A program made the position numbers and the translations under genes. From Candidatus Saccharimonadota bacterium (lineage in GTDB: Bacteria; Patescibacteriota; Saccharimonadia; Saccharimonadales; UBA10212): DNA of 64,000 nt. Shown here piece by piece: positions 3 through 15,241 of this stretch; the first letter of the stretch is position 1, and each line of letters starts with the position of its first letter. Where the stretch lies: contig JALHRM010000003.1 of the NCBI GenBank assembly GCA_022841445.1, positions 343 through 64,342 on the forward strand, read 5' to 3'. The notes beneath the pieces were generated by a model. The model saw only the letters and a program-made list of their open reading frames with translations, was not told where the DNA came from and ran no database searches.

Positions 3-3000
3 TCGTCGACAACCAACGTTAATGTTGGCAGTACGATTGCCGGAACTACGACGCTACAGTCGGCCGGCGGTGTTATTGTTTCAGCACTCGCCACCGCAGA
101 TACGTCAACATACCTATGCCGAAATTCAACGAATCGAATAGCAACTTGTACGGCAGGTGCAAATACTCTCCAAGCAGCATATGATGCAGACGCCGATGGT
201 AGCGATAGTGTTATCGCTCTCACGACAGCTGATGATGGTCTTGTCATCCGCAATCCTAGTTCAGGGGGAAGTGACAGCACTTATAACCTAACTATCGATC
301 AGTTGTCGACTGGTGCTCGTGGTGGGCTAAGCATTCAATCCGCTGGAACAGGCAACCTGTTGCTTGTTACTGATACAACCGCTACAGCTCGCGATGTGCT
401 CGCTATTGCCGACGGGGGAGCTGCTACCTTTAGGAATCAGACTGATTCGACTTCTGCCTTTGGTATCCAAAACGCTGCCGGGACCTCTCTCCTCACTGCC
501 GATACTACTAATCTAGATATTGCTGTTAACGGTCGCCTTGCAGCGACCAAGTCAACTGCTATAAATCAGGACTGGACAAAGATCTCCGGCACCGCCGGCA
601 CCATCGGCGGCAACGGTACCGGCATTGATGGTATGCAAACAGCTGCAGTCTACAACGGTGCACTCTATTTCGGAATAGAAGTGACGGATGCGGCTGCGAT
701 CTACCGCTATGATGCCAACGGAGTATGGACGAGCGTTTCTGGCACTGCCGGCACAGTCGGTGGTGGAGCCACAACCGGTATTGATGGTATACGCGACATG
801 GTCGTTCACAATGGCCAGTTATTTGTTGGCACCGACAAAGCAAATGAAGCCGAAGTCTACCGTTACGACGGTGGCAGCAGTTGGACAAAGATCTCCGGCA
901 CCGCCGGCACCATTGGTGGCAACCCCACTGGCAGCATCAATCGCGCCAATACATTGATCAGTTACAACGGTTCACTGTATGTAGGAACAGAAGAAGCCGA
1001 CAGCGCCGAAGTCTACCGTTACGACGGTGGCAGCAGTTGGACAAAGATCTCCGGCACCGCCGGCACCATTGGTGGCAACCCCACCACACTTATCAATTCC
1101 GTAAAAAGCATGGCTGTGTATAGTGGCTCGCTCTACTTAGGAACCCAGGAATCAAACTCCGCCGAAGTCTACCGTTACGACGGTGGCAGCAGTTGGACAA
1201 AGATCTCCGGCACCGCCGGCACCATTGGTGGCAACCCCACCACTACCATTACGGCGGTGAGCGATCTTGCATCGCATAACGGCAATCTATATGCCGGTAC
1301 CAACAAGACCGACCAGGCCGAAGTCTACCGCTACGATAGCGGTACGACGTGGACTCGGGTCAGCCATACTACTGCCGGAACGATTGTTAGCGGTGGTACT
1401 TCAAGTGTGGATGCTGCCAATGAGTTAGAAGTCGTCAATGGTAGCCTTTACCTTGGAACGTATACGACCAACAGTCAGGGCGAAGCGTACCGCTATGACA
1501 ATGCCGTCGGAGCCTGGACAAAAATCTCTCAAACTACCGCTGGTACCGTTGCAGCGAGCGGGACTGCCAATATAGATGAGATTCAACGACTGGTTGGATT
1601 CGGTGGCTCGCTCTACGCTGGAAGTTTCGAAACAGATGGTGCAGAGGTATACCGTTATGGCGACAACACCCTCGAAGCCCGCTCCACCGAAACCCTCGGT
1701 ACCTTCAGCTTGTCTGGCACTGGTACTGCTTCATTCCAGAACTCTACTAACTCTACTATTGCATTCGATGTCCAAAATGCTGGCGGAGCATCACTATTCA
1801 ACATTGATTCCACCAATGCAGGCAACATTACCCTGCTTGGTGGTAATAGCGGAGAGACGAGTGCATGGCAGATCAATGCCAGTGGTCTGACCACAGCTCT
1901 CAGGGAAAGTTCAACGGTTACCGCCAATGGCTATGTATATATGTTAGGCGGAGTGAACGGTAGTAATGTGGGCGTCACGACCGTCTCCTACGCCAAAATA
2001 AATGCCAATGGCTCGATTGGCAGCTTTACTGCTACCAGCAGTCTGCCATCGGTTCGTACCGGGCACACTTCGGTAGTTGCCAACGGTTACATTTATGTAC
2101 TTGGTGGTCTGGACGCCGAAGCCGGTACCCCACAAGCAACTTCCTATTACGCCAAGATTAATACTGACGGCACCCTCGGTAGCTGGACAATTACGACCAG
2201 CCTTAGTGCAGCTACCGCTCACCATTCCAGTGTCGTCGCCAATGGCTATGTCTATGTCATCGGTGGTCGCAACACCGGCTCAACGCTCACCATATCCACC
2301 GTTTCGTATGCTAAGCTCAACGCCGACGGCACCATCGGTGCCTGGAGTGCCACCTCTAGCCTTGTTACTACTACCGGACTGGCCGCTGCCAGTATTGCTA
2401 ACGGCTACGTTTATATACTAGGTGGTCGTTCCGACACTGCGACTACTGGTGGCCGACAAAACGTCCAGTATGCTGCGCTCAACCCTAACGGTACTGTCGG
2501 AACTTGGACGGATGTTGCTAGTGCCTTGCCGGCTGCCCGAGCAGTACTGACATCAGCTGTTCAAAATGGCTACCTGTACGCCATCGGCGGACGCTTAAGC
2601 GGGACATCAAACACGACCGTCTATTACGCCCAACTTAATGCCAATGGGAGCTTTGGTAACTTTGCCACATCTGCCAATGCACTCCCCGAAGGCCGCGATG
2701 CCCACACAACTATTGCTGCCAATGGCTACCTCTATGCGCTGGGCGGTGAACTCAGTAACACAGAAGCCAGTACCATCTACTACACTTCCACCTCACGAGT
2801 AAGTATTGGCGGCAGTCTAGACTTAGTTGGATTGTCGGGTGAGAACTTGAGCGATGGCGGTGGTGGCAGTCTTACTGCTGGTGATACAGCGATTGTTGGT
2901 ACCTTGAACGTTCAGGAACAGGCTAATTTCTGGGATGCCGTATATGTGGCCAGCGACCTAAGCATCGGCAATAGCCTTGAAGTTACTGGACAGCTTCGCT

Positions 3001-6000
3001 CAGCCGCTATAGGTGATCTTACGCAGGCTGAAGGTGGTGGTGCTGGGCCAGACTCGGTTGCTATCAAGGGCAAATATGCTTATGTGACAAGTTATGATGG
3101 TGACCTGCTTCAAATCGTCGATATTACTGATCCAACCAACCCTGATGATGTCAGTAACGTGACCGTTGGCGATGCACCCGAATCAGTGGCGGTGCAGGGT
3201 AACTATGCATATGTCGGTACAACCGGTATTCCGGGATCGCTCGTAGTGGTTGATATAAGCAACCCATCATCACCAAGAGTCGTTAGTTCGATTAATGCCG
3301 GTACCGATCCATTCCATGTGCAGGTGCAGGGCAGCTATGCCTACGTGTTAAGTCAAAACAGCGACGGAATAAATGTTTTCGATGTTTCAAACCCAAGTGC
3401 ACCGGTACTCGTAAGTACATTCACAACGAGCGTTAATGGCCCACAAGATGCCTACATACAGGGCAATTATATGTATGTTGCCAATAATGATGGTCAAAAC
3501 CTGCAGGCTATTGATATCTCCAATCCTCGAGCGCTGGCTCATGTTGGATCGGTAGGCTTTGCCACTTTGCCACTGTCAGTAGTTGTATCGGGCAGCTACG
3601 CCTATGTCACCGATGAGACTACATTGATGTATGTGGTCGACATCAGTAACCCTGCAAGCATGTCATCACTGGGCAGTTATTTCGCTGACGCTGATATCGA
3701 AGACATGGTGCTACAGGGTCGCTACATCTATGGAGTGAGCAACCAGGGGGCGACGAGCAAGCTGTACGCCTACGACATTACCAACCCAACAACTCCGGAA
3801 GATGTCATGAACATCCCAGTTGGCACAAACCCGTATCATTTGGCAGTCAGTGGCAGGTATGCGTATGTCACCAGCTACACCAGCGATTTGTTGCAGGTGT
3901 TTGATCTTGGTGGCGGCTATGTACAACAACTTGAAGCCGGTGGTTTGCAGGCAACAACAATTAACGTCCAAGATGTTTTGGTGAATAATCGGCTTGATGT
4001 TGGCGGTAGCATAAGTGTCGGCACCAACTTAAGTGTCGGCGGTAATTTATCTATTGGGCGTATTGCCAGCAATATTTTGCCAGCAGCTGCAGCTACAACA
4101 TCGGCAACCAGTGCGGTAACTACCACACTTGATAGCGCCAACGATGTCGGTAACCAGGGTAGTATGAAACTTGGCTCTGACGGTATGCCAATAATCGCGC
4201 ACCACGACGAAACTAACGGTACGCTCCGCATAACGCACTGCTCGACAAGTTCGTGTAGCTCGTCAACAACCGTTACTGCTTATGATACCGCTAATGATGT
4301 CGGTGAATTCCCCGATATAGCTATTGGCAAAGACGGCCTTCCAGTTATCAGTTTCTATGATCGTACAGCGGGCGATCTGTATTCACTGAAATGTACAAAT
4401 GCTACTTGTACTGGTAGCTATATCACGACGTTACTTGAATCGGCTACTAATGCTGGCGGACAAAGCTCAATCGCTGTTGCTCCAGACGGTCTGCCAATCA
4501 TTGCTTTCCTAGATGACACCAATGACAACCTAATGACGCTTAAGTGTAGTAATGTGGCATGTAGTGATACTACGGGAGACACACTGACCACCGTTGAATC
4601 AACAGGGGTTGTCGGTTTTGATCCAGACATTGTCATTGCACCTGATGGCCTGCCTTTCATCGCTCATTATGATTTCACAGGTAACCTTAATCTAAGGACA
4701 GTAAAGTGTGGAAACGCAACTTGCTCATCAGGAAACGTTGTTAACGCACCTGATACCACAAACGATGTTGGTAATCGTCCAGCGGTTGCTATTGGTTCCG
4801 ACGGTCTGCCGATAATCGCCCACCACGATGATACTAACGGTGACTTACGAGTTACCAAATGTGCCGACATAGACTGCAACGTAAGCAGTACCAGCACGCT
4901 TGATTCGACTAATGATGTCGGCGATCAGGCCTCAATAACTATTGGTGCTGACGGTTACCCGCTGATTGTTTACCGTGAAGAAGTTTCTGGCGCAGATCAT
5001 GATGTGAGGGCTATGAAATGTACATCGCTCGACTGTGTTTCAAACACTACGACAGATGTTTACAGTAGCGGAGTTTCCGGCGGTTCAACACAAGTAATAT
5101 TCGGCACAGACGGCTTGCCCGTTGTGTCATTCCAGGATGGTAGCGGTGACGACTTGCTCGCGGTGCGCTGTGGAAACACATCATGTAGCGGCTCCGGTAC
5201 AGCGCTGAGCGGTGGTATTCAACTTGGTTCATCGAGCGTGCCGGTTCAAACCGCTTACATAGGTAACTTGCAAACTGGATCAGCTGCTGAATCTCTAACA
5301 CTCGGTACTAATGGCGTTACTCGACTAACTGTAGATACGTCAGGCAATAGTACGTTTCGGGGTAATATCTTAGCCGCTAGTTCACCAACTTCATCATCTA
5401 CTACTCGCACGCAAACCAGCATTACTGATGCTAATACCGTTGGACAGTGGAGCTCAATTATAATTGGTACCGACGGCTTACCAGTCATTTCTTATTATGA
5501 TCAGAGCGGCGGCGATCTGGCGGTTCTGAAATGTGGAAACGCCGCTTGCACATCTGGCAATACTTCAACCAAAATTTCTGATGGCGGTGGAGATACATGG
5601 GGCCAATGGACATCGATTGCCATAGGCTCAGACGGCTATCCGATTATTTCGCACTACAACTCGACCGATACAGACCTAGCGATTACTAAGTGTAGCAATG
5701 CCAGCTGTAGTTCGAATTCGACTACCAAGTTTGCCGACGGCCTCTATGCTGATGCTCAAGCAAGAGGCACCTATTCGGCTATTACGATAGGTGATGATGG
5801 CTTACCAATAGTGGTTTATAACCAAGACGATGGTGTTTCAGACCGCGATCCGTTTGTCGTCCAATGTACTACCACATCATGCACTGCTCTCGCTAACTAC
5901 ACAGCCATAAATGATGCTGGCGAAAGCCATGGTAGTTTTGCCGACGTTACTATCGGCTCCGACGGCTTGCCGGTGGCGGTTTACCGTAACGCAACTGACC

Positions 6001-7361
6001 AGGCCATTGCAGTAACTCGCTGTACGTTGGCAGATTGCTCAACAACCGCAACACAGGCGAATGTCTATGACACTGCCCAAAACATCGCTCTTGACATGTC
6101 GATCGCAATCAGCCCCGACGGTTATCCAGTGATAAGCGGTCATAATAACGCCACGTTTGACCTGACCGTCACAAAGTGTACGGCTGTCGATTGTAGCACT
6201 TCATCGAGTACTGAAATTGGCGATGGTGGTGGTGATCAAATCGGGTTCTGGTCGTCAATCGCCATCAGTACCGACGGCTATCCGATTATCTCATCAGAAA
6301 ACAGAACTGACAGTGATCTGCATATCATTAAGTGTGGTAATGCAACTTGTACTTCCGGCAATACAACTACTAACCTCGGAACGGTTGACACCGATTTCTA
6401 CACATCAATTGCTATCGGAGCTGATGGTTTACCGGTTATTTCTCACTGGGACTTTACGACCGTCAACAACTTAGCAGTTACAAAATGTGCAGATATTACT
6501 TGTAGTTTGGCGAACTCGTCAACATCCAGTGGTGGTTATAACATAGGTAGTTCAACCAACTACTTCAACAATATCTACGCCAACCAGTACTACGGCAAGA
6601 ACTTCAGTATTGCTAATTTCGACCTTGCCGAGGAATACGCAGTTGAGGATTTGTCACTGGCCGCGGGAGAGATCGTGGCGCTAAACCCAGCTAGCGGTAA
6701 ACTAAAACGAGCAACTTTGAGCGAACGCCAGAACATCATGGGAATTGTTTCGACAAGTCCTGGTTTGGCATTGCGTGACTACGAAGCAAATCGTACGGAT
6801 ACACGACTGATTGCTTTAGTCGGTCGTGTCCCACTTAAAGTGAAAGGCCCAGTCGCCATCGGTGATCCAATCACCATTTCAGAAACTGACGGCGTCGGTA
6901 TAAGGGCTGACTCTGCTGGGTTAATTGTTGGTCGGGCGCTGCAGTCTACCCAAAGCGACGGTACAGTTGATGTGTTTGTTCAGACCCAGTACTACGTTCC
7001 GTCAGTTGAACTCCAGGGTATCAGTTTCAGTAAGTTCCAGGATCTGCTTATCGGTGGGGAACTACAGGCCGAATCATTGGTAGTGAACACAGTTGCTACG
7101 TTCAAGAGCGGTATTATTATCTTTGGCCACATCACTGGCAACGATGATACTCGGGGCACTGTCACTTTGTTGGCGGGTCAAAGTAGCATCACAAAACCAT
7201 TCAACACTGCCTACCTGACGCCGCCGACGGTCGTTGCTTCACCAACCATAAACACTGGCGGTAACAATTTCTGGGTAGTAAAAACCGAAAACGACTTCAC
7301 TATCTATGTTGCCAACCCAACTACTAGTAACATAACTTTCGATTATCTCATCCAGCAGTAG
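3..7361 (+). CDS. Giant multi-repeat cell-surface protein, 5'-truncated (at least 2,352 aa in the window). Order of regions: beta-helix-like N-terminal repeats, a 52-aa WTKISGTAGTIGG/EVYRYDGG repeat, Kelch blades (ANGYVYVLGG), LVIVD blades, 14 copies of a ~50-aa Cys-pair repeat, and an orphan C-terminal domain.
   Basis: The frame beginning at nt 3 has no stop, so the gene continues upstream of the window and the TTG at 303 is not the true start. The translated sequence shows recognisable Kelch and LVIVD periodicities. The ORF is long, uninterrupted, and low in hydrophobic segments apart from its repeats. Confidence 0.85.
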   Translation, partial: SSTTNVNVGSTIAGTTTLQSAGGVIVSALATADTSTYLCRNSTNRIATCTAGANTLQAAYDADADGSDSVIALTTADDGLVIRNPSSGGSDSTYNLTIDQLSTGARGGLSIQSAGTGNLLLVTDTTATARDVLAIADGGAATFRNQTDSTSAFGIQNAAGTSLLTADTTNLDIAVNGRLAATKSTAINQDWTKISGTAGTIGGNGTGIDGMQTAAVYNGALYFGIEVTDAAAIYRYDANGVWTSVSGTAGTVGGGATTGIDGIRDMVVHNGQLFVGTDKANEAEVYRYDGGSSWTKISGTAGTIGGNPTGSINRANTLISYNGSLYVGTEEADSAEVYRYDGGSSWTKISGTAGTIGGNPTTLINSVKSMAVYSGSLYLGTQESNSAEVYRYDGGSSWTKISGTAGTIGGNPTTTITAVSDLASHNGNLYAGTNKTDQAEVYRYDSGTTWTRVSHTTAGTIVSGGTSSVDAANELEVVNGSLYLGTYTTNSQGEAYRYDNAVGAWTKISQTTAGTVAASGTANIDEIQRLVGFGGSLYAGSFETDGAEVYRYGDNTLEARSTETLGTFSLSGTGTASFQNSTNSTIAFDVQNAGGASLFNIDSTNAGNITLLGGNSGETSAWQINASGLTTALRESSTVTANGYVYMLGGVNGSNVGVTTVSYAKINANGSIGSFTATSSLPSVRTGHTSVVANGYIYVLGGLDAEAGTPQATSYYAKINTDGTLGSWTITTSLSAATAHHSSVVANGYVYVIGGRNTGSTLTISTVSYAKLNADGTIGAWSATSSLVTTTGLAAASIANGYVYILGGRSDTATTGGRQNVQYAALNPNGTVGTWTDVASALPAARAVLTSAVQNGYLYAIGGRLSGTSNTTVYYAQLNANGSFGNFATSANALPEGRDAHTTIAANGYLYALGGELSNTEASTIYYTSTSRVSIGGSLDLVGLSGENLSDGGGGSLTAGDTAIVGTLNVQEQANFWDAVYVASDLSIGNSLEVTGQLRSAAIGDLTQAEGGGAGPDSVAIKGKYAYVTSYDGDLLQIVDITDPTNPDDVSNVTVGDAPESVAVQGNYAYVGTTGIPGSLVVVDISNPSSPRVVSSINAGTDPFHVQVQGSYAYVLSQNSDGINVFDVSNPSAPVLVSTFTTSVNGPQDAYIQGNYMYVANNDGQNLQAIDISNPRALAHVGSVGFATLPLSVVVSGSYAYVTDETTLMYVVDISNPASMSSLGSYFADADIEDMVLQGRYIYGVSNQGATSKLYAYDITNPTTPEDVMNIPVGTNPYHLAVSGRYAYVTSYTSDLLQVFDLGGGYVQQLEAGGLQATTINVQDVLVNNRLDVGGSISVGTNLSVGGNLSIGRIASNILPAAAATTSATSAVTTTLDSANDVGNQGSMKLGSDGMPIIAHHDETNGTLRITHCSTSSCSSSTTVTAYDTANDVGEFPDIAIGKDGLPVISFYDRTAGDLYSLKCTNATCTGSYITTLLESATNAGGQSSIAVAPDGLPIIAFLDDTNDNLMTLKCSNVACSDTTGDTLTTVESTGVVGFDPDIVIAPDGLPFIAHYDFTGNLNLRTVKCGNATCSSGNVVNAPDTTNDVGNRPAVAIGSDGLPIIAHHDDTNGDLRVTKCADIDCNVSSTSTLDSTNDVGDQASITIGADGYPLIVYREEVSGADHDVRAMKCTSLDCVSNTTTDVYSSGVSGGSTQVIFGTDGLPVVSFQDGSGDDLLAVRCGNTSCSGSGTALSGGIQLGSSSVPVQTAYIGNLQTGSAAESLTLGTNGVTRLTVDTSGNSTFRGNILAASSPTSSSTTRTQTSITDANTVGQWSSIIIGTDGLPVISYYDQSGGDLAVLKCGNAACTSGNTSTKISDGGGDTWGQWTSIAIGSDGYPIISHYNSTDTDLAITKCSNASCSSNSTTKFADGLYADAQARGTYSAITIGDDGLPIVVYNQDDGVSDRDPFVVQCTTTSCTALANYTAINDAGESHGSFADVTIGSDGLPVAVYRNATDQAIAVTRCTLADCSTTATQANVYDTAQNIALDMSIAISPDGYPVISGHNNATFDLTVTKCTAVDCSTSSSTEIGDGGGDQIGFWSSIAISTDGYPIISSENRTDSDLHIIKCGNATCTSGNTTTNLGTVDTDFYTSIAIGADGLPVISHWDFTTVNNLAVTKCADITCSLANSSTSSGGYNIGSSTNYFNNIYANQYYGKNFSIANFDLAEEYAVEDLSLAAGEIVALNPASGKLKRATLSERQNIMGIVSTSPGLALRDYEANRTDTRLIALVGRVPLKVKGPVAIGDPITISETDGVGIRADSAGLIVGRALQSTQSDGTVDVFVQTQYYVPSVELQGISFSKFQDLLIGGELQAESLVVNTVATFKSGIIIFGHITGNDDTRGTVTLLAGQSSITKPFNTAYLTPPTVVASPTINTGGNNFWVVKTENDFTIYVANPTTSNITFDYLIQQ
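849..1240 (+). repeat. Three identical 80-bp direct repeats (849-928, 1005-1084, 1161-1240; period 156 bp) that encode successive 52-aa repeat units of the giant protein.
   Basis: The exact string gccgaagtctaccgttacgacggtggcagcagttggacaaagatctccggcaccgccggcaccattggtggcaaccccac is read three times. A partial fourth copy lies near 579-620. Confidence 0.9.
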
Positions 7362-7421: not shown

Positions 7422-7925
7422 ATGGGCAAGATAAAAAAGCTCGGAGTGTATCTGTTAATGTTTACCATTGTCGGGATGGTTGGCGGAGGCACGGCCTGGT
7501 ACCAATACGGCAGGGAAGAGCCGTTGCCTGATGATGTCGCTGATCAACTTAGCTTTGCCCCATATAAAATTATCAGCACCGACGACGTAAAACCGGTCAA
7601 ACCAGTCAATTATGATTCCAATGTGCAACTGCTTACCTACCAATTAAGTGTTAAAGGCATCAAGGTAGTGGTGAGTCAGCAGCCGATCCCGGCAAATTTT
7701 AAAGAAGTCGAAAATCCGTTCGAGCAGTTATCTAAACAAATGAATGTCGAACAGTATTTTAAAAGTAAGAACGGGGTAGTGAGTATCACCTATCCAAACG
7801 GCCCAAATGCCCAGCAAACGGCACTGCTGAATAACGACAAAGCACTGTTGTTGGCACGACCAGACAAAAACTTAACGGTCAGTGAGTGGAAAGAACTTTT
7901 TGCCAGTTTTAGCGTAGAAAAATAG
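7422..7925 (+). CDS. Small secreted or membrane-anchored hypothetical protein (167 aa) with an N-terminal TM/signal helix.
   Basis: Clean ORF immediately downstream of the giant gene. The N-terminus has a hydrophobic stretch (LGVYLLMFTIVGMVGGG). Confidence 0.5.
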   Translation: MGKIKKLGVYLLMFTIVGMVGGGTAWYQYGREEPLPDDVADQLSFAPYKIISTDDVKPVKPVNYDSNVQLLTYQLSVKGIKVVVSQQPIPANFKEVENPFEQLSKQMNVEQYFKSKNGVVSITYPNGPNAQQTALLNNDKALLLARPDKNLTVSEWKELFASFSVEK

Positions 7926-7942: not shown

Positions 7943-8563
7943 GTGGGTCAAACTCGTAAAACATCGCACCGCCCCAAGTCCGCATCTCAACATAATAAAA
8001 AACGTACAACTTCGCGCCCAAAATCTATTTCTAAACTGATATCTCGTCACAAATTGGCTTTTACGGGGCTTAATTTACTGGTGGCTGCAGCCATATTCTC
8101 AAATATTTTTGCACCAGACATGAAACCATCGAGCGTTATACGGGTCGAAGCCCAATCCATTAGTGAAGTTAACCTTGATGATCCGGTGAACGAAGGGCCT
8201 GTTGCCGACGATACGTCGGTCAATCAAGGAGACATCCTCACTAACGAAAGTGCGTCGGTGACACCAGGGGTGGGGAGTGGGAGTGTCAATAGTGACGGTT
8301 TGGCAGAGTTACAAGAAATCGAAACTCTGAATACATCTGAAAAGCTGGAAATAGATGACACTGGTGCTGGCGAGACTACATCTGATACCAACCTGATTGG
8401 CGGCTCTGCTGGACTAACCACCTATAGTGCATTGGTGAGTGATCTTGATATGAAGGAAAAACTAGTACTTGCATATGCAGTAATGTCGTTCATATTTTTC
8501 ACCGGAGCAACAGCTTATTTCGTTATACGTCAGGAGCTGTGGTTTTTATCACCCAAGCGCTAG
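7943..8563 (+). CDS. Hypothetical membrane protein (206 aa). It has a basic N-terminus, an internal TM, an acidic Ser/Thr-rich segment and a C-terminal TM.
   Basis: ORF with two predicted TM helices (LNLLVAAAIFSNIF and LVLAYAVMSFIFFTGATAYFVI). Confidence 0.45.
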   Translation: MGQTRKTSHRPKSASQHNKKRTTSRPKSISKLISRHKLAFTGLNLLVAAAIFSNIFAPDMKPSSVIRVEAQSISEVNLDDPVNEGPVADDTSVNQGDILTNESASVTPGVGSGSVNSDGLAELQEIETLNTSEKLEIDDTGAGETTSDTNLIGGSAGLTTYSALVSDLDMKEKLVLAYAVMSFIFFTGATAYFVIRQELWFLSPKR

Positions 8564-8650: not shown

Positions 8651-9412
8651 ATGGCAAAACGTATCATAGCAGTCATAAACCAAAAGGGCGGTGTTGGAAA
8701 AACGACGAGCGTGATTAATATTGCTGCTGGTTTAGCCAGTGCAAATAAACGAGTACTAGTCTGTGACCTTGACCCACAAGGAAACGCTACGAGCGGACTA
8801 GGTATAGACAAACAGCAGCTAATCACAACATTGTACGACGTACTATTTTCACGTGCCGAGGCAATGGCAGTTATCCAACCGCTACGTATCAATAATTTGT
8901 TTATATTGCCAAGTAATTCTCAGCTGGCAGCTGCAGAAGTTGAACTTGTGCCGATTGAATCGCGCGAGTTTGCCTTAAAGAAAGTTCTTGAACCACTTGC
9001 GTTTGACTACATTCTGATTGACTGTCCGCCGTCCCTTGGACTGCTGACAATTAACGCTCTGACGGCAGCTGACGATGTTATCATTCCGCTGCAGACCGAA
9101 TACTATGCGCTTGAAGGGTTAGGGCAACTACTCGATGTTATGCAGATGATTCGCCAAAACATCAATCCAACCCTGGAACTCCTTGGAGTGCTGCTTACTA
9201 TGTATGATCGTCGCAATTCACTATCTGAACAGGTAAAACACGAAGCGCAGCGGCATTTTGGCGACAAGGTATTTCACACCACAATACCGCGCAACGTTCG
9301 TCTTGCAGAAGCACCAAGCTTTGGTAAAACAATCTATGAGCATGATAAATGGAGCAAAGGTTCACGAGCTTACAAAGCGCTAGTAAAGGAACTGGAAAAG
9401 AGGATAATGTAA
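8651..9412 (+). CDS. parA: Chromosome partitioning ATPase ParA/Soj.
   Basis: Deviant Walker A motif KGGVGKTT at the N-terminus (MAKRIIAVINQKGGVGKTTSVINIAAGLA). Length 253 aa, typical for ParA. Confidence 0.92.
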   Translation: MAKRIIAVINQKGGVGKTTSVINIAAGLASANKRVLVCDLDPQGNATSGLGIDKQQLITTLYDVLFSRAEAMAVIQPLRINNLFILPSNSQLAAAEVELVPIESREFALKKVLEPLAFDYILIDCPPSLGLLTINALTAADDVIIPLQTEYYALEGLGQLLDVMQMIRQNINPTLELLGVLLTMYDRRNSLSEQVKHEAQRHFGDKVFHTTIPRNVRLAEAPSFGKTIYEHDKWSKGSRAYKALVKELEKRIM

Positions 9413-9414
9413 CT

Positions 9415-10269
9415 ATGGTAAAGCAAGCATTGGGCCGAGGGTTTGATAGTCTAATTCCGAAAGACTTTGATCGCCAATTACTAGGTAATAATCAACACCG
9501 AGTACAAAATGTACTCATTAGCGACATTTTACCAAATAGTGAACAGCCACGGAACACATTTCGTGATCAAGAATTACATGAGCTTACTCAATCGGTACAA
9601 ACTCATGGTGTGTTGCAGCCAATAATTGTCGTACGTCAAAAAAATAATAAATATAAGATTGTCGCCGGCGAGCGCCGTTGGCGCGCCGCTAGCGCCGCCG
9701 GTCTAACACATATTCCAACTATTGTCCGCAGCCTCCAAGATCTTGAGCAGGCCGAAATTGCGCTCATTGAGAACATTCAACGTGTCGATCTTTCACCACT
9801 TGAACAAGCATTAGCAATCGAACGACTACAGCAACATTTCAACCTAACGCTCGAACAAATTGCTCAAAAATTAGGTCGTGCCATCAGTACTGTCAGTAAC
9901 ACGACCCGACTTCTAAAGTTGCCACAGGATGCGGCTCGCGCACTGGCCGAGGGTCGAATATCAGAAGCACATGCCAGAGCTATATTGTCACTGACAAATC
10001 ATCCAAATCTGCAGCAACAGCTACTGGATAATATCTTAACCAATAACTGGACGGTTCGTCAGGCAGAACAATTTGCCGTTGCCGCCAAACAAGGCGAGGC
10101 GTCCCAGCGCGCTAAAGCTCGAACGGAAAGCGAGACTCCCTATACTAAAGCAGTTAGCAAGAAACTTGCCGCACCGGTAAGTGTTCGCCACACCGCCAAA
10201 GGTGGGCAACTTATAATTAAATTTACTTCCGAAAAAGACTTAAAACGAATCATCAAACAAATAGGCTAG
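9415..10269 (+). CDS. parB: Chromosome partitioning protein ParB/Spo0J.
   Basis: ParB box KIVAGERRWRAA and an HTH region are present. I placed the start at ATG 9415 (MVKQALGRGFDSLIP), 2 nt after the parA stop; the six-frame ORF opens earlier at 9349 in the same frame. Confidence 0.9.
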   Translation: MVKQALGRGFDSLIPKDFDRQLLGNNQHRVQNVLISDILPNSEQPRNTFRDQELHELTQSVQTHGVLQPIIVVRQKNNKYKIVAGERRWRAASAAGLTHIPTIVRSLQDLEQAEIALIENIQRVDLSPLEQALAIERLQQHFNLTLEQIAQKLGRAISTVSNTTRLLKLPQDAARALAEGRISEAHARAILSLTNHPNLQQQLLDNILTNNWTVRQAEQFAVAAKQGEASQRAKARTESETPYTKAVSKKLAAPVSVRHTAKGGQLIIKFTSEKDLKRIIKQIG

Positions 10270-10361
10270 CTGACCTGCTTGGTCTGTGCCACTAATTGAC
10301 ACGAACTCTCTGTAAGCATAAGCTTGGCGTAGAGATTTATTAAGTTTGCTTAATATGAGAA

Positions 10362-11864
10362 TTGGTGATTCGTATGGCGCAAGCAACAAAACGTTCGAAA
10401 AAAACAAATAAGTCCGTGGCTGTGCGAAAAAATAACAAAGGACGCAGTAGTCAGAGGCTGGTGCGATCTTACAATGACCGTAAGTTTATTCAGCTGTTTC
10501 ACCACATGCCGTTTGGGCTATCGTTGTGCATAGCATTGCTTATGGCCTTTGTTGCAGCCTTCGCCATATTTTCTAACCAGCCAACTACGACCGCCCAATC
10601 AAAGGCACCACTACTATTTGACGGCAGTAAAGTCGCAAATTGGGGAAATTCACAGGTTGGGAGTAAATGCGGTTCGTCTATTCGCGATATAAGCGAAGTA
10701 CCTCCTGGTAAAAGTGGTACATCAATTCAAGTAACACTTGCTGACAACTGCATATCCAGCATAGATCTGGGCAAGAACCCGAGAGAACGGGCAGAACTGC
10801 TTATGCCAATTGATAAGCTTCAATTCAAAGAAGGTACGGTGTGGTACGTCGATTTTTGGCAGCGGTTTGACCAATTAGCTAGTGGCAGTGGTGATTGGGA
10901 CATTTGGCATCAGCATCATTATTACAGAGGCGGTCAGCCCAACATTATTTTTGCTTCAGACAGCGGTAAGCGCATGAAGTTTAAAACTTCAATCGGTTGT
11001 GGCCATAGCACGCACTGGAATGGCCCCGCCATAGAAACGGGCAAATGGTATCACTTTACTCTGGGTGTTAAGTATGCCGATCTGGCCGCTAACGGCTGGA
11101 TAGAATTAAAAGTTGACGGTCAAACTGTGGTGAAACAAAAACCAGTTGCTACGCTTAATTCATCACAATCAGTTTGCTCCGGAAACTTTGATGGTAACAA
11201 GGGATATCCTAAGAAAGGTATCTACCGTAATGCGGCATTCTCGGGTACCGAGCAGAACACAACATACGGCTTTAGAATTTATGGCGGACAACCGCCCGCC
11301 AGTACTCCCAACCCCTCGCCTGATCCTACACCTGCACCACCACCATCAAACCCCAACCCAGATCCATATCCCGATCCAGACCCTGAGCCAGCTCCTCCAG
11401 AAGCGCCAAAGCCCCAAATAACGGTACGGGGTGGAGATATTACGAGCTGCAAGACCCCCTCAGAGTTCATACCCAATGGTTGTGCCGACCGGATTATTGA
11501 TGATCCACTTGCTCAAGGTCAAAGAACGCTCACCATTGGCCGGAAAGTCTTGCCCGTGTACCATACGTTTACAGCTGCCGAAACCGATGATTACCGAATT
11601 GGCTACAGTCTGCGAAGCAAAGATTACCGTGGACCAGCTAAAATAAATGTTTATCTTGATGGCAAATTGGTAAAAGAAAATGTAACAATTGACGGCAGTA
11701 AGTACAATTACTATTACCTAACCAGAAAATTAGCTGTTGGAAAGCACACTTTCAAGGTAGAGTTCATCAATGATAAATGCGGTAACTTCATACCGAGGGA
11801 ACCATGCGACGGCAAGCACGATCGTAATCTTCTTGTTGATTACTGGAAGCTCATACAGCTATAG
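10362..11864 (+). CDS. Secreted or membrane-anchored protein with an N-terminal TM anchor, a ConA-like/polysaccharide-lyase-like domain, a Pro-rich linker (PDPTPAPPPSNPNPDPYPDPDPEP) and a C-terminal carbohydrate-binding-like beta-sandwich domain.
   Basis: The Trp/His-rich core (WYVDFWQRF...WHQHHYY...GKWYHFTLGVKY...GWIELKVDG) resembles ConA-like lectin/glucanase and polysaccharide-lyase folds. The linker composition is typical of extracellular multidomain enzymes. The start may instead be ATG 10374 (MAQATKR). Confidence 0.5.
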   Translation: MVIRMAQATKRSKKTNKSVAVRKNNKGRSSQRLVRSYNDRKFIQLFHHMPFGLSLCIALLMAFVAAFAIFSNQPTTTAQSKAPLLFDGSKVANWGNSQVGSKCGSSIRDISEVPPGKSGTSIQVTLADNCISSIDLGKNPRERAELLMPIDKLQFKEGTVWYVDFWQRFDQLASGSGDWDIWHQHHYYRGGQPNIIFASDSGKRMKFKTSIGCGHSTHWNGPAIETGKWYHFTLGVKYADLAANGWIELKVDGQTVVKQKPVATLNSSQSVCSGNFDGNKGYPKKGIYRNAAFSGTEQNTTYGFRIYGGQPPASTPNPSPDPTPAPPPSNPNPDPYPDPDPEPAPPEAPKPQITVRGGDITSCKTPSEFIPNGCADRIIDDPLAQGQRTLTIGRKVLPVYHTFTAAETDDYRIGYSLRSKDYRGPAKINVYLDGKLVKENVTIDGSKYNYYYLTRKLAVGKHTFKVEFINDKCGNFIPREPCDGKHDRNLLVDYWKLIQL

Positions 11865-11900
11865 CCTATCTATATGAAATTGAACTGCTGAAAATGAACC

Positions 11901-12575
11901 CTAGAACCGCTCAGCATTGTCGAGCGGCAGGATTCGGAGCGAAAGTTTACCAACAATCTGATCGGCAGTGATTGGACCAAACTCACGTGAATCAGCCGAA
12001 TTTGCCCGGTTGTCACCGACAACAAATATCTGATTATCTTTAAGGGTGAAGTCAACGTCGTTAGGCGTGGTGCGAGAAGTAATGGTGTATAAGCCACTTT
12101 TGTCGGGGTTGAATCCATTAGGCTCTTCTTGATTGTAAACGGTTAACGAGCCATCCTTAACCACCACACGTTCACCTGGCAAACCGATCACTCGTTTGAT
12201 GAGTTGCCGCTCACCACCTTGCCCAATACCAAGTAAGCCGCTTTGGTTGAATATGATAATTTCACCACGATGCGGAATATAAGGGTTTTTGGTGATTCGT
12301 GACCAAGTGCGTGGAATTTTATCGACAATTAGCCGATCTCGATGCTGCAGGGTTGTTTCCATGCTTTCGCCGTCAACCTCGTACGATTGGAACATAAATG
12401 TCGTTACCGAAATCGCGATAATGGGGGCGAGTAAAAACAATAGAATTGTCGACACCGCCGAAGATTTACGGTCTTTTATCTTTGGTTCTTTTTCGGGTTC
12501 GACATCAGAAACCCTATTAAAAGGCTGTGGTGCCGTGGGCTGTGTAGGTGATGGTTGGTTTTGTTGTGGCGGCAT
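11901..12575 (-). CDS. lepB: Signal peptidase I (S26 family).
   Basis: Motifs GESMETTL (catalytic Ser) and GDNRANSADSR are present, with an N-terminal TM anchor. Confidence 0.9.
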   Translation of the reverse strand: MPPQQNQPSPTQPTAPQPFNRVSDVEPEKEPKIKDRKSSAVSTILLFLLAPIIAISVTTFMFQSYEVDGESMETTLQHRDRLIVDKIPRTWSRITKNPYIPHRGEIIIFNQSGLLGIGQGGERQLIKRVIGLPGERVVVKDGSLTVYNQEEPNGFNPDKSGLYTITSRTTPNDVDFTLKDNQIFVVGDNRANSADSREFGPITADQIVGKLSLRILPLDNAERF

Positions 12576-12819
12576 ACAAGTTGCTATTATAGCCTGCCAT
12601 CATTCAATATGCGAGCGACCGATTGTATTAACTGGTGTTGTGACAAAAACTAAGGCATAAACAGTTTTAGGGTTTCACCAGTGAGCACAAGTGCTATACT
12701 GGTAAGCGTCTCCGCTATATTCGTGTGTATCTGTTAGGAGACCAAATAAGCTAGTTTTTTATGTATATAATACAAATAACGAATCATCATAGTATCGTCT
12801 TGTCGAACGGAGTAGCCAG

Positions 12820-14511
12820 GTGAACCCGGATTTTAAAAGACGTAGTCAGTATTCATCTCCACCACCATCGCTGGATGGTCTTTTGAGTCGACCGGCTCAG
12901 CATGCAAATCGACCCCAACCGCAGTTCCGATCCGCCGGAGCGGAGGCACCACGTCAAGCACCGGCTGCAGTCCGACTGGATAGTTTTTCAAGTCCGGATG
13001 GATTCCGAGCATCATCAGGTCCGTCAATGGATGGATTCCGATCAAATACGCCAACTAGCACTATTGATCCTTCGGCAAATGCCGCTCATTCTAGCTTACC
13101 CCAGCCGCATGATCCAACGGATGTGCCGCATAAACCAGTAAAAAAACACAAACGTCGTCGAGTATCGGTATTCAAAATATTTCGTCGGGTAGGACTCGCT
13201 GCCACAGTATTGATCATTGCCGGCGGGTCTTACTTTGGTGTAAAACTGTACCTGACCGGGAGGAATGTGCTGCAGGGTGGTGTTAGTGCTCCAGCGTTAG
13301 CCAGTACCGTTGATGCCTCGCAGTTGAGCGGTGAAGGCGATGGCCGTGTGAATGTGCTGTTGATCGGCAAGGGTGGCGACAACCACCCAGGCGGACAGTT
13401 AACCGACACGTTGCTTATCGCCAGCATTGATCCGGTTAATAAAAAAGCCGCAGTGGTCAGTATACCGCGTGATTTTTGGATGAAAGTTGCTGGCACAAGC
13501 AGTTACCAAAAAGTAAATTCTGTCTATAATCTTGGTAAAGAAAAATCAACGGCCAAAACCAAAAACCAAGAAGAAACAGATGGCGTAAAGCTACTTTCTG
13601 ACACCATGAGCCAGACGCTCGGCATCCCGATCCAGTACTATGCCATGTTTGATTTTACTGGCTATAAAGAACTAGTAGACACAGTCGGCGGTATTGACAT
13701 TAAAATCGATGAACCGATTTTTGATCCGAATTTTGACGGTCAATATGGGAGAAATGCACTCCGTCTACCGGCCGGCAACGTACATCTCAGTGGCACACAA
13801 GCATTGCTACTTGGCCGCGCTCGTGGTGTGGCAGGCGGCTACGGTGTAAGTTCTGACTTTGATCGCAATGAAAATCAGCGCAAAATGATTGTTGCACTCA
13901 AGGATAAGCTCTTAAGCAGTGGCACATACACTAACCCTGTCAAGATCAATCAATTGGTGACAACGCTTGGCGACAATGCGAAAACAAGTTTTTCGGCTGG
14001 TGAAATAATTCGCCTAAATCAGATTTTTAAGCAAATTAAGCCTGCCGACATCGCATCGATTGATTTTGTGACGCCGCCAAATGACCTGCTAACTACCGGC
14101 AATATAGCCGGCCAGTCTGTTGTTTATCCAAAAGCCGGTATTACTAATCTTGGTCCAATTCAAAACTATCTGCGTAATACACTGAAGGACGGATTCTTGC
14201 AGCAAGAAAGTGCAAAAGTGGCGGTTTATAACGACACCAATATCAGCGGACTAGCCGGCAAGCAGGCCGAAATACTGCGGTCATTTGGCTACACTGTAAC
14301 TACAGTTACTGACGCTCCTGGCAAACAGAATAGTCCTACCACGACAGTTGTAGACCTTACTGGTGGTACAAAGAAGTTTACTAAACGATATTTGGAACAG
14401 CGCTTTAAGGTAACGGCGATTGCCAAGCCGGCAAATGTGCAAATTCCGGCAGACCCGACAACAGTTGATTTTATTGTTATAGTAGGTCAAGATGCAGCGA
14501 ATACTCCGTAA
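12820..14511 (+). CDS. LytR-CpsA-Psr (LCP) family cell-envelope glycopolymer transferase. It has a long disordered Pro/Ser-rich N-terminus and a single TM.
   Basis: LCP core VNVLLIGKGGDNHPGGQLTDTLLIASIDPVNKKAAVVSIPRDFW plus a LytR_C-like C-terminus. GTG start. Confidence 0.8.
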   Translation: MNPDFKRRSQYSSPPPSLDGLLSRPAQHANRPQPQFRSAGAEAPRQAPAAVRLDSFSSPDGFRASSGPSMDGFRSNTPTSTIDPSANAAHSSLPQPHDPTDVPHKPVKKHKRRRVSVFKIFRRVGLAATVLIIAGGSYFGVKLYLTGRNVLQGGVSAPALASTVDASQLSGEGDGRVNVLLIGKGGDNHPGGQLTDTLLIASIDPVNKKAAVVSIPRDFWMKVAGTSSYQKVNSVYNLGKEKSTAKTKNQEETDGVKLLSDTMSQTLGIPIQYYAMFDFTGYKELVDTVGGIDIKIDEPIFDPNFDGQYGRNALRLPAGNVHLSGTQALLLGRARGVAGGYGVSSDFDRNENQRKMIVALKDKLLSSGTYTNPVKINQLVTTLGDNAKTSFSAGEIIRLNQIFKQIKPADIASIDFVTPPNDLLTTGNIAGQSVVYPKAGITNLGPIQNYLRNTLKDGFLQQESAKVAVYNDTNISGLAGKQAEILRSFGYTVTTVTDAPGKQNSPTTTVVDLTGGTKKFTKRYLEQRFKVTAIAKPANVQIPADPTTVDFIVIVGQDAANTP

Positions 14512-15241
14512 AATAAAGCCACTCAAAGGCTTTTCACACCCACTCCACATACTATTCAAAATATTGCTACCAATCCTAGTATTTGTACTGGTTCGTATTG
14601 ATTTTCTGAGCTTGGCGATTATCCTCATTTTACTAAGTAAATGGCGATTATTTGCTGTGCGCCCAAGGTATTGGGCGGTAAACGTTGTTAGCAATGGCGT
14701 TGATATTTTGGTTGGCGTTTCGCTGGCCGTATTTATGGCCAATACTGGATCGGAATGGTGGCAACTGTTTTGGGTGGCGGTATATGCTGGTTGGCTGGTG
14801 TGGCTTAAACCTCGTTCAGATGCTTTCTCGGTCAGTATGCAGGCGTTGCTTGGCCAACTGGTGGCCTTGTCGGCTTTTTATCTAAAATTCAGTGATATAT
14901 CACTACTGGGTTTGGTGGCCGGAACTAGTGCTATTGCCTATATTTCGGCACGACACTTCATTAGTAGTTTTGACGAATCACACCCTGGACTTGTATCAAA
15001 CGTTTGGACGTACTTTGCTGCTGGGTTGGCGTTTGTGCTTGGTCATTGGTTGTTGTTTTACAGCGTTATTGCGCAGATTACATTGTTTTTGACTGTTATA
15101 GGTATTGGTGTCGGAACATTATATTATTTACATAAATATGACCGACTCTCAGGAAAAATTCAGCGCCAAATCGTAGGCTTGCTGTGTGCCGTGCTGGTCA
15201 TTGTCCTAATATTTTCAAACTGGACTGCCACACCGGTGTAG
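14492..15241 (+). CDS. Polytopic integral membrane protein, hypothetical (about 7 TM).
   Basis: Very hydrophobic 249-aa ORF that overlaps the end of the LCP gene by 20 nt. Confidence 0.5.
   Translation: MQRILRKIKPLKGFSHPLHILFKILLPILVFVLVRIDFLSLAIILILLSKWRLFAVRPRYWAVNVVSNGVDILVGVSLAVFMANTGSEWWQLFWVAVYAGWLVWLKPRSDAFSVSMQALLGQLVALSAFYLKFSDISLLGLVAGTSAIAYISARHFISSFDESHPGLVSNVWTYFAAGLAFVLGHWLLFYSVIAQITLFLTVIGIGVGTLYYLHKYDRLSGKIQRQIVGLLCAVLVIVLIFSNWTATPV

What the first reader, a model, noticed from the sequence alone, without database searches (positions are those of the whole stretch)
3..7361. Giant, 5'-truncated multi-propeller surface protein built from at least four repeat classes
One uninterrupted reading frame spans the first 7.3 kb and continues upstream of the window. 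Its product strings together beta-helix-like repeats, a 52-aa WTKISGTAGTIGG/EVYRYDGG repeat, about six Kelch blades (ANGY[VIL]Y[VA][LI]GG), about eight LVIVD blades (AYV...LLQIVDITDPTNP), 14 Cys-pair repeats and an orphan C-terminal domain. Proteins of this size and architecture are typical adhesins or host-interaction proteins of small-genome episymbionts and are usually lineage-specific. It is immediately followed by two small membrane/secreted ORFs that may be partners.
Basis: partly seen in the sequence, partly recalled or inferred. Interest (0 to 1): 0.7.

Follow-up and report, generated by a model that had tools for sequence, protein, structure and literature searches.

The report
Giant phage-fibre-like surface protein, Saccharibacteria
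The first 7.3 kb of the window encode the last 2,452 residues of a giant cell-surface protein of a Saccharibacterium (an ultrasmall bacterium that lives attached to other bacteria): five beta-propeller domains are followed by a folding and trimerisation module otherwise found at the ends of phage tail spikes, which makes it a candidate host-recognition fibre.

Summary
One frame is open from base 3 to the stop at 7359-7361 (2,452 codons) and runs off the 5' end.

It encodes five beta-propellers:
- 7 x 52-aa "WTKIS" blades
- 6 Kelch blades
- 7 LVIVD blades (not about 8)
- 2 x 7 CxxxxC blades

Fibre-like linkers separate them.

Three parts of the interpretation need correcting.
- No repeat class is lineage-specific. 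Only the combination is.
- The two small downstream membrane ORFs are absent from every orthologous locus.

New context: the gene fills a conserved slot directly upstream of parA-parB in at least four other Saccharibacteria-type genomes. There, 2,450-3,870 aa positional counterparts carry different propeller sets. Complete ones start with a short cytoplasmic tail and one TM anchor.

Best reading: an N-terminally anchored, probably trimeric, possibly self-cleaving modular adhesin. Trimerisation, cleavage and ligand are inferred, not shown.

The parts
3..7361 (+). Giant ORF, C-terminal 2,452 codons plus stop; the 5' end lies outside the window
3..557 (+). aa 1-185: Thr/Ser/Gly-rich fibre-like segment with one Cys pair (C39, C49). 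It ends in the recurrent linker motif 'STSAFGIQNAAGTSLLTADTTN'
   Evidence: aa 55-176 are 70% identical to L001 giant aa 883-1005.
573..1682 (+). aa 191-560: propeller 1, 7 x ~52-aa WTKIS/EVYRYDGG repeats. It includes a 156-bp DNA tandem array at 769-1336
   Evidence: PF03478 Beta-prop_KIB1-4 scores 28.7 bits against a cut-off of 27.4. At least 386 homologs, mostly LamG + propeller proteins. No structure was predicted.
1683..1820 (+). aa 561-606: second copy of the linker motif ('STIAFDVQNAGGASLFNIDSTN')
1821..2792 (+). aa 607-930: propeller 2, 6 Kelch blades (ANGY[VIL]Y..GG)
   Evidence: 41-45% identical to the Kelch propellers of L001, L003, L008 and L012.
2793..3047 (+). aa 931-1015: fibre-like linker 'SRVSIGGSLDLVGLSGENLSDGG...LNVQEQANFWD', conserved after the Kelch propeller in all positional counterparts
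3048..3932 (+). aa 1016-1310: propeller 3, 7 LVIVD blades
   Evidence: PF08309 E 1.1e-38. 51% identical to L012/P0251.
4119..5216 (+). aa 1373-1738: propeller 4, 7 Cys-pair (KCxxxxC) blades
   Evidence: AF2 pLDDT 87, pTM 0.85, 28 strands. Fold searches. At least 936 homologs.
5217..5417 (+). aa 1739-1805: linker between the two Cys-pair propellers. It starts with 'GGIQLGSSSVPVQTAYIGN', a variant of the junction motif that precedes the autochaperone
5418..6533 (+). aa 1806-2177: propeller 5, 7 Cys-pair blades
   Evidence: Blades are about 28% identical within and between blocks, so this is not a recent duplication.
6531..6989 (+). aa 2177-2329: phi29 gp12 D4-like (Peptidase_G2-type) intramolecular chaperone module, preceded by the tail-fibre junction 'GGYNIGSSTNYFNNIYA'
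6621..6632 (+). D2207-L-A-E2210: counterpart of the 'DFAE' that opens the cleaved gp12 fragment. The predicted autocleavage bond is F2206|D2207
   Evidence: DxAE in 220 of 236 family modules. Cleavage itself is inferred.
6990..7127 (+). aa 2330-2375: linker ('LLIGGELQAESLVVNTVATFKSGIIIFGH')
7128..7358 (+). aa 2376-2452: terminal ~80-100-aa beta-rich domain shared with P0001/P0250, L001, L003, L007 and many family members
   Evidence: The AF2 model here is low-confidence.
7422..7925 (+). 167-aa ORF with an N-terminal TM/signal anchor. Not conserved at orthologous loci, so probably not part of the system
7943..8563 (+). 206-aa ORF with a basic N-terminus and two predicted TM segments. Not conserved at orthologous loci
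8651..10269 (+). parA (8651-9412) and parB (9349-10269): the conserved downstream boundary of the giant-gene slot

Best explanation
This is the distal 2,452 residues of a giant (probably more than 3,000 aa) cell-surface fibre of a Saccharibacterium. It is encoded in a conserved chromosomal slot directly upstream of parA-parB.

By analogy with complete positional counterparts, the missing N-terminus is a short cytoplasmic tail, a single transmembrane anchor and a long tail-fibre-like shaft.

The part in the window presents five beta-propellers: a 7-blade 52-aa-repeat propeller, a 6-blade Kelch, a 7-blade LVIVD and two 7-blade Cys-pair propellers. Short fibre-like linkers separate them. These propellers are the likely ligand- or glycan-contacting heads.

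Near the C-terminus sits a phi29 gp12 D4-type intramolecular chaperone. In phage tail spikes this module nucleates trimer assembly and is then cut off at the bond before its conserved D-x-x-E. I infer that it does the same here. After export it would drive the three chains into register, and it may self-cleave at F2206|D2207, releasing the last 246 residues.

Different strains carry different propeller sets between conserved ends, in the way phage receptor-binding proteins do. This fits a role in recognising the host bacterium's surface.

Shown: the ORF, the repeat anatomy, the propeller fold of the Cys-pair block, the fold and motif of the autochaperone module, the family size, the synteny and the mosaicism.

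Inferred: membrane anchoring of this particular protein, trimerisation, cleavage, ligand, and a role in host attachment.
For: ORF and repeats:
-. Kelch and LVIVD score above the Pfam cut-offs.
- The Cys-pair block folds as a 7-blade propeller with pLDDT 87 and pTM 0.85. Its nearest solved folds include the bacterial lectins PLL, PHL, BP39L and CV39L.

C-terminal module:
- PHROG tail-fibre families, E 1.8e-11 to 2.9e-8.
- Homologs P0002-P0009 are 227-479 aa phage-fibre-like proteins, four with Mtd_N, that end in this module.
- The profile aligns 'DlAE' to residue 1 of that fragment ('DFAEYFE') and to 'DYAEYFE' of a tailspike 'chaperon domain D4'.
- DxAE is kept in 220 of 236 modules of 147 family representatives.
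- The module occurs in virion structural proteins of Pseudomonas PA5oct-like, Campylobacter CP220-like and Sinorhizobium phages.

Literature:
- D4 is a trimerisation autochaperone, and homology to 'some bacterial adhesion proteins' has been noted (bioRxiv 10.1101/216911).
- Mature gp12* ends at residue 691 (PMC6542822).

Family:
- 4,644 relatives, mostly 1,000-3,900 aa.

Synteny:
- Giant gene, then parA, parB, SPase(-), lytR in L001, L003/L009, L008 and L012.
- In L012 both flanks are housekeeping genes.

N-terminal anchor in complete relatives:
- L003, L008, P0251 and P0276.

Mosaicism:
- The autochaperone module is 76% and the LVIVD propeller 51% identical to L012. Yet L012's ParA, ParB and LytR are only 60%, 45% and 43% identical.
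- The closer genome L001 lacks both modules.

Biological context:
- Giant membrane proteins of CPR bacteria are thought to mediate host attachment (PMC8080830).
- Several surface adhesins are essential for epibiotic growth of a Saccharibacterium (PMC10633639).
Against: - The N-terminus of this protein is not in the window. It could not be recovered, so anchoring and secretion are by analogy only.
- The window's module does not reach Pfam PF11962 even at E<=10. Only 2 of 10 close relatives touch it, best E 3e-4.
- Unlike gp12, the module is not terminal: 123 residues follow it. It is preceded by a propeller rather than a long beta-helix.
- Many family members carry two such modules, with a median of 235 residues after the last one. 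That is not the simple 'cleave off the last domain' arrangement.
- No oligomer prediction could be run.
- Propellers strung on a trimeric shaft are unproven here.
- No expression or localisation data exist.
Confidence: 0.6

Rival explanations
1. A monomeric 'beads-on-a-string' surface adhesin. The gp12-like module would be just another beta-sandwich/beta-tulip interaction or spacer domain that neither trimerises the chain nor cleaves.
For: The module is internal, with 123 residues following it. It is often duplicated in the family. Beta-tulip domains also serve as general interaction modules (10.1101/216911). Propellers fold autonomously and need no trimer. No coiled coil or long triple beta-helix was detected by Pfam.
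Against: The D-x-A-E motif at the exact position of the gp12 cleavage site is kept in 93% of modules. That is hard to explain for a passive spacer. The junction motif 'GNIGSSTNYFN' and the inter-propeller linkers resemble those of phage fibre proteins that end in the same module. All the closest structural relatives are trimer-forming.
Confidence: 0.2
2. A cell-anchored polysaccharide-degrading machine, analogous to a phage tailspike depolymerase. One or more propellers would be lyases or hydrolases that open the host cell envelope, rather than lectin-type binders.
Confidence: 0.12
3. An S-layer or general envelope-scaffold protein with no role in partner recognition.
For: The protein is very large, Thr/Ser/Gly-rich and repetitive, and it is encoded in a conserved chromosomal position next to housekeeping genes.
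Against: No SLH or other S-layer domain was found. Domain content differs radically between positional counterparts, which is unexpected for a lattice-forming scaffold. Complete relatives have a single N-terminal TM anchor.
Confidence: 0.05
4. A tail-fibre gene of an integrated prophage, or an assembly chimera.
For: The C-terminal module is phage-like. The gene lies at the window edge, and in L001 at a contig end.
Against: No other phage genes were found. In L012 the gene is flanked on both sides by ftsZ/nrd/L21 and by parAB/lytR/htrA. The same slot is occupied in four other loci. The frame is intact and co-linear with P0251.
Confidence: 0.03

Closest known systems
Bacillus phage phi29 gp12 pre-neck appendage (tail spike), C-terminal D4 autochaperone (MEROPS/Pfam Peptidase_G2, PF11962; PDB 3gqh, 3gq7)
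   Different: It is not detected by the Pfam model. It is not terminal, since 123 residues and a further domain follow. It is preceded by a beta-propeller, not a beta-helix. The host protein is a chromosomal, membrane-anchored bacterial giant protein. Cleavage and ATP dependence are untested.
Giant membrane/surface proteins of CPR episymbionts (for example the 1,392-4,163 aa proteins of Vampirococcus lugosii, PMC8080830; essential adhesins of Southlakia epibionticum, PMC10633639)
   Same: Same lineage type, size, modular interaction domains and presumed host-attachment role.
   Different: Those papers list WD40/TPR/PKD or VCBS/dockerin/FN3 domains. They do not describe the gp12-type autochaperone, the five-propeller line-up or the conserved slot upstream of parAB. 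No direct homology to the named genes was tested.
Photorhabdus PLL/PHL and Burkholderia/Chromobacterium BP39L/CV39L seven-bladed propeller lectins
Pfam DUF1936 (PF09151) and the widespread single-propeller 'Cys-pair' proteins of Chloroflexota, Nitrospirota, Actinomycetota, CPR and DPANN archaea
   Same: Same repeat consensus: 'VG.YTSIAIG.DGLPVISYYD.TNGDLKVA.CGN..CSSGNT'. 35-44% identity over a whole propeller.
   Different: Those are mostly 400-700 aa proteins with one propeller. Here two copies are embedded in a giant protein. The window's copies do not score against PF09151 themselves. The family is uncharacterised, and no paper mentions DUF1936.
Mosaic phage receptor-binding proteins (tail fibres and spikes)
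   Same: Conserved attachment and assembly ends with exchangeable receptor-binding modules. Shared junction motif and C-terminal chaperone.
   Different: Here the 'attachment end' is a membrane anchor in a cell, and the gene is chromosomal and syntenic with housekeeping genes.

Membership tests
phi29 gp12 D4 / Peptidase_G2 intramolecular chaperone | Tandem beta-tulip fold of the D4 fragment | tested here: met
phi29 gp12 D4 / Peptidase_G2 intramolecular chaperone | Significant match to Pfam PF11962 | tested here: not met
   No hit for the window protein even at E<=10. 2 of 10 relatives match, best E 3e-4.
phi29 gp12 D4 / Peptidase_G2 intramolecular chaperone | Conserved acidic motif (D-x-x-E) at the N-terminal boundary, where gp12 is cut after residue 691 | tested here: met
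   D2207-L-A-E2210. The profile aligns it to residue 1 of 3gqh ('DFAE'). It is invariant in A1/A3 and present in 220 of 236 family modules. Mature gp12* ends at 691 (PMC6542822).
phi29 gp12 D4 / Peptidase_G2 intramolecular chaperone | Lies at the extreme C-terminus of a trimeric beta-helical spike | tested here: not met
   123 residues follow the module, and a propeller precedes it.
phi29 gp12 D4 / Peptidase_G2 intramolecular chaperone | Drives trimerisation and is removed by autoproteolysis | not testable with these tools
   No multimer prediction or experiment was available.
Kelch-repeat beta-propeller | Pfam Kelch models above the gathering score; six blades | tested here: met
   Kelch_6 49.5 bits against 25.3; Kelch_1 41.7 against 20.1; PF24681 54 against 50. 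Six ANGY.Y..GG units.
LVIVD-repeat beta-propeller (PF08309) | Pfam LVIVD above the gathering score, repeated | tested here: met
   130.7 bits against 20.2, 5 scored stretches. Seven units by motif.
Beta-prop_KIB1-4 (PF03478), for the 52-aa repeat block | Pfam match above the gathering score | tested here: inconclusive
   28.7 bits against 27.4, E 1.2e-6, which is marginal. Some homologs carry precomputed PF03478 hits. No structure model was made.
PLL/PHL seven-bladed propeller lectins | Seven-bladed propeller fold | tested here: met
PLL/PHL seven-bladed propeller lectins | Sequence homology, and the two-Trp sugar sites between blades (PMC5584973) | tested here: not met
   No PDB sequence match at E<=10. 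There are 0 Trp in propeller 4 and 5 in propeller 5.
Pfam DUF1936 (PF09151) | Match above the gathering score (25 bits) | tested here: not met
   None for the window's blocks. 10 of 32 homologs match, through summed short stretches of the 34-position profile.
S-layer protein | SLH or another known S-layer anchoring/lattice domain | tested here: not met
   No such Pfam or NCBIfam hit.
Trimeric autotransporter adhesin | C-terminal YadA-type membrane anchor; Hep_Hag/HIM repeats | tested here: not met
   No hits. The protein ends in a soluble beta-rich domain, and complete relatives are anchored at the N-terminus.

The most novel reading that the evidence does not exclude
Saccharibacteria, and possibly other CPR bacteria, keep a dedicated chromosomal slot next to parAB for a cell-anchored, phage-receptor-binding-protein-like fibre. 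The fibre would be assembled as a trimer by a gp12-type self-cleaving chaperone. Its propeller 'heads' would be swapped between lineages as cassettes and would determine which host bacterium the epibiont can attach to. That makes it a cellular counterpart of phage tail-fibre mosaicism, and perhaps evidence of module exchange between CPR bacteria and phages.
Probability: 0.25. Interest if true: 0.8.

Novelty: new variant of a known kind. Interest (0 to 1): 0.55.

Why it matters
How ultrasmall episymbiotic bacteria recognise and hold on to their specific host bacteria is an open question. Genetics has so far implicated type IV pili and a few poorly defined adhesins.

This locus offers a concrete and easily located candidate: the gene upstream of parA. 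It has a testable assembly mechanism (D2207/E2210-dependent cleavage and trimerisation). Its modular architecture could be compared with host range across strains.

The work also gives a first structural assignment, a seven-bladed propeller, to a very widespread uncharacterised Cys-pair repeat. And it shows that the phage gp12-type autochaperone is the hallmark of a family of thousands of giant bacterial proteins.

Tried and rejected
- **Recovering the missing 5' end.** Exact-protein look-ups of the 167-aa ORF and of ParA found nothing. The genome and metagenome scans returned relatives only, best segments 38-40% identical, and not the contig itself.
- **Whole-protein self-BLAST.** It returned only the identity hit. 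I replaced it with 60-aa tiles.
- **Sequence searches of PDB.** Searches with the single segments found nothing meaningful. Only the trimmed family profile reached 3gqh, at E 0.015.
- **Prophage origin.** Rejected from gene content and synteny.
- **S-layer or autotransporter assignment.** Rejected for lack of any defining domain.
- **Small ORFs as conserved partners.** Rejected by tblastn against 12 loci.
- **Taxonomy of the wider family.** The cluster look-up gave one name only, Ca. Dojkabacteria.
- **The terminal ~120 residues.** AF2 gave pLDDT below 55 with the shallow alignment, so that domain's fold is unassigned.
Full report
**1. Observation**

Translating from base 3 gives 2,452 codons without a stop, ending at TAG 7359-7361. 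The first in-frame start listed by the ORF finder is a TTG at 303. However, the frame is open to the window edge. The residues before 303 are homologous to internal parts of relatives. The gene is therefore truncated at its 5' end by the window.

The product is rich in Thr, Gly, Ser and Ala (45% together). It has 30 Cys, and 28 of them form 14 CxxxxC pairs.

Tiled self-comparison and motif anchoring give the following anatomy:

| Residues | Feature |
|---|---|
| 1-185 | fibre-like segment |
| 191-560 | seven ~52-aa WT[KSR][IV]S...EVYRYDGG repeats |
| 561-606 | short linker repeating the motif 'ST.AF.[VI]QNA.G..L...D..N', also present at aa ~150 |
| 607-930 | six Kelch blades |
| 931-1015 | fibre-like linker |
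| 1016-1310 | seven LVIVD blades |
| 1373-1738 | seven Cys-pair blades |
| 1806-2177 | seven Cys-pair blades |
| 2177-2452 | C-terminal region |

Pfam confirms LVIVD (E 1e-38) and Kelch (E 1e-11 to 1e-14) above their gathering scores.

At the DNA level only three 52-aa repeats form a recognisable tandem array (156-bp period, 76-88% identity). Assembly collapse is therefore unlikely. The Cys-pair blades are about 28% identical to one another both within and between blocks, so these are old repeats.

**2. What genome this is**

The rest of the window is ordinary bacterial chromosome. It holds parA, parB, signal peptidase I, LytR-CpsA-Psr, HtrA, a sigma factor, PrmC, RF1, S2, an M50 protease, ProRS, class-I LysRS, MetK and SecA. 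No tRNA genes were found.

A scan of one genome per species found the best relatives of the giant protein in Candidatus Saccharibacteria/Saccharimonadia MAGs. The contig itself is in none of the searchable collections.

**3. The 'orphan' C-terminal domain**

Pfam, NCBIfam and single-sequence PDB searches were silent. PHROGs, however, matched aa ~2180-2315 to the C-termini of phage tail-fibre families (E 1.8e-11, 2.2e-8, 2.9e-8).

A word-indexed homolog search found one close relative with Cys-pair repeats (P0001). It also found eight 227-479 aa phage-fibre-like proteins, four of them starting with the Mtd N-terminal domain. All end in the same ~120-aa module after a shared junction 'GNIGSSTNYFNTVFA...YADLAE.Y'.

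A profile of the trimmed module aligns its invariant D-L-A-E to the very first residues of that fragment ('DFAEYFE'). It also aligns to 'DYAEYFE' of a deposited tailspike 'chaperon domain D4'.

Published work supplies the mechanism:
- D4 is a tandem beta-tulip 'autochaperone' needed for trimerisation of the spike. Rossmann and colleagues had noted homology to 'some bacterial adhesion proteins' (10.1101/216911).
- It is cleaved off after folding (PMC3357383).
- Mature gp12* ends at residue 691 (PMC6542822).

In the window protein the corresponding bond would be F2206|D2207.

**4. Size of that family**

An exhaustive phmmer search of 1.84 billion cluster representatives with the last 283 residues returned 4,644 proteins at E<=1e-3, and 1,278 at E<=1e-10. 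Most are 1,000-3,900 aa long, with the match near the C-terminus.

In the 147 best hits:
- 89 carry two modules and 57 carry one.
- The last module is followed by a median of 235 residues.
- D-x-A-E is present in 220 of 236 modules, mostly after Phe or Tyr.

One hit is named as Ca. Dojkabacteria. Among isolated phages the module occurs in virion or baseplate proteins of PA5oct-like Pseudomonas jumbo phages, CP220-like Campylobacter phages and a Sinorhizobium jumbo phage.

The last ~80-100 residues of the window protein form a further domain. It is shared with P0001/P0250 and with the giant proteins of L001, L003 and L007, and with many hits that align to the very end. Its model was poor and its fold is unassigned.

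**5. The two unannotated propeller types**

They come from Chloroflexota, Nitrospirota, Actinomycetota, CPR and DPANN archaea. Most are 400-700 aa proteins with a single seven-repeat unit, and all Cys are invariant.
- A third of them score against the 34-position Pfam DUF1936. The window's copies do not.
- No paper mentions DUF1936.
- AF2 gives a confident model (pLDDT 87, pTM 0.85) with 28 strands, which means seven four-stranded blades.
- Foldseek ranks the Photorhabdus PLL/PHL lectins first (E 1e-14, TM ~0.8 on the target).
- The two-Trp sugar sites that define PLL/PHL (PMC5584973) are absent.

The fold is therefore settled. Whether it binds or catalyses is not.

*52-aa WTKIS block.* It has at least 386 homologs in Planctomycetota, Latescibacteria, Gemmatimonadota, CPR and others. 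Typically these are ~550 aa LamG + propeller proteins. The block marginally passes PF03478. I could not model it.

**6. Genomic context and counterparts**

tblastn of the window's neighbours against the fetched loci shows the same order in L001, L003/L009, L008 and L012: giant gene, then parA, parB, SPase (opposite strand) and lytR.

L012 is a 164-kb contig. There the 3,870-aa P0251 lies between ftsA-ftsZ-nrdR-RNR-L21 and parA-parB-SPase-lytR-HtrA-prmC-RF1. This excludes a prophage.

Complete counterparts begin with a short cytoplasmic segment and one TM helix. In L003, L008 and P0276 that segment is a CxxC...CxxC zinc-ribbon-like motif plus a Pro/Ser/Thr-rich linker. A long shaft with tail-fibre-like motifs follows.

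Domain content differs between counterparts:
- L003 and L008 have four Kelch propellers and no LVIVD, Cys-pair or gp12-like module.
- L001 has Kelch plus one Cys-pair propeller and a different C-terminal region.
- L012 has Kelch, LVIVD, one Cys-pair propeller and the gp12-like module.
- Only the window has the 52-aa propeller and two Cys-pair propellers.

Similarity is incongruent with the housekeeping neighbours. The gp12-like module is 76% and the LVIVD propeller 51% identical to L012, yet L012's ParA, ParB and LytR are only 60%, 45% and 43% identical. The closer genome L001 (66%, 53%, 58%) lacks both modules but shares the N-terminal segment at 70%. This points to cassette gain, loss or exchange at conserved linkers.

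The two small ORFs after the giant gene are predicted membrane proteins. They have no family hits and no counterpart in any of the 12 loci. The interval between the giant gene and parA is variable:
- empty in L003;
- a 498-aa ORF in L012;
- two dockerin proteins (PA14, GHL15) in L001.

**7. Mechanism**

The best-supported reading is a membrane-anchored, phage-receptor-binding-protein-like fibre. The propellers would contact the partner cell's surface. Assembly would be nucleated from the C-terminal side by the gp12-type chaperone, with possible self-cleavage at F2206|D2207.

The fold, the motif and its family-wide conservation are shown. Trimerisation, cleavage, anchoring of this particular protein and the ligand are inferred.

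The module's internal position and its frequent duplication in the family are real departures from the phage paradigm. They keep a non-cleaving, monomeric reading alive. A depolymerase-type function for one or more propellers cannot be excluded from fold data.

Published context makes a host-attachment role plausible but does not test it:
- CPR giant membrane proteins are presumed to attach to hosts (PMC8080830).
- Several adhesins are essential for epibiotic growth of a Saccharibacterium (PMC10633639; PMC11665869).

**8. Novelty and verdict**

Giant modular surface proteins of CPR bacteria are a known kind. The gp12 D4 link to 'bacterial adhesion proteins' was noted in 2009. As far as the searchable literature shows, the following are new:
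- the specific architecture;
- the identification of the 'orphan' end as a gp12-type chaperone heading a family of thousands of giant proteins;
- the seven-bladed fold of the Cys-pair (DUF1936-type) repeat;
- the conserved slot upstream of parAB with mosaic occupants.

I rate it a new variant of a known kind, of moderate to good interest. It turns 'some giant adhesin' into a locus with a specific, testable assembly and host-recognition hypothesis.

Noticed in passing
window 10362-11864 (+): Directly after parB lies a 500-aa protein with a polysaccharide-lyase-like domain (PF14099, E 7e-10), a weak CBM60/Big_7-like C-terminus and a Pro-rich linker. In L001 the interval between the giant gene and parA holds two dockerin proteins (PA14; GHL15). 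Secreted glycan-active genes seem to gather around this slot.
   Followed up: partly
L003 7450-8400; L008 3031-3900; P0276 N-terminus: Several complete giant counterparts start with a cytoplasmic CxxC...CxxC zinc-ribbon-like motif ('KTCVVCNQPF..KTCSARCRKR'). A long Pro/Ser/Thr-rich linker and the TM anchor follow. There is no Pfam hit. A cytoplasmic zinc ribbon on a giant surface protein hints at inside-out coupling or regulation.
   Followed up: no
proteins P0252-P0398: Most members of the wider family (89 of 147 examined) carry two gp12-like modules in tandem, ~130-250 aa apart, followed by a further ~120-250 aa. This arrangement is not known from phage spikes.
   Followed up: partly
P0003, P0005, P0006, P0007: These are small (227-380 aa) phage-fibre-like proteins. 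They combine the N-terminal domain of the Bordetella phage Mtd tropism determinant with the gp12-type C-terminal chaperone, in place of Mtd's variable C-type-lectin domain.
   Followed up: no
L007 460-3836 (CAYMJR010000025.1, labelled Gammaproteobacteria MAG): A gene interrupted by an N-run has a Kelch propeller, a fibre, a 'GGADYSEYF' gp12-like module, a coiled segment and the same terminal domain. Either the contig is mis-binned or the family extends beyond CPR.
   Followed up: partly
window 9349-9412: The listed parA and parB ORFs overlap by 64 nt. tblastn matches to ParB in relatives begin at residue ~23, so the true parB start is probably downstream of 9349.
   Followed up: no
window ~10000-14000: Cumulative GC skew is flat or slightly negative up to ~12 kb and rises steadily afterwards. 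This coincides with parAB and with the only early strand switch (SPase on the minus strand). It might mark proximity to the replication origin, but no dnaA was seen.
   Followed up: no
window 20337-22727 (+); 14492-15241 (+); 19307-19876 (+): ORFs of 207, 581, 249 and 189 aa have no Pfam hit at E<=1e-5. The 249-aa ORF after lytR has a positional counterpart of 253 aa in L012.
   Followed up: no
window 33233-34762 (+): A class-I lysyl-tRNA synthetase (PF01921, E 4e-96). This type is unusual for bacteria.
   Followed up: no
L001 90-7460: The L001 giant gene also runs off its contig start and contains an N-run. Together with the truncated window this suggests that these repetitive genes often break assemblies, so their lengths are under-reported.
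   Followed up: no
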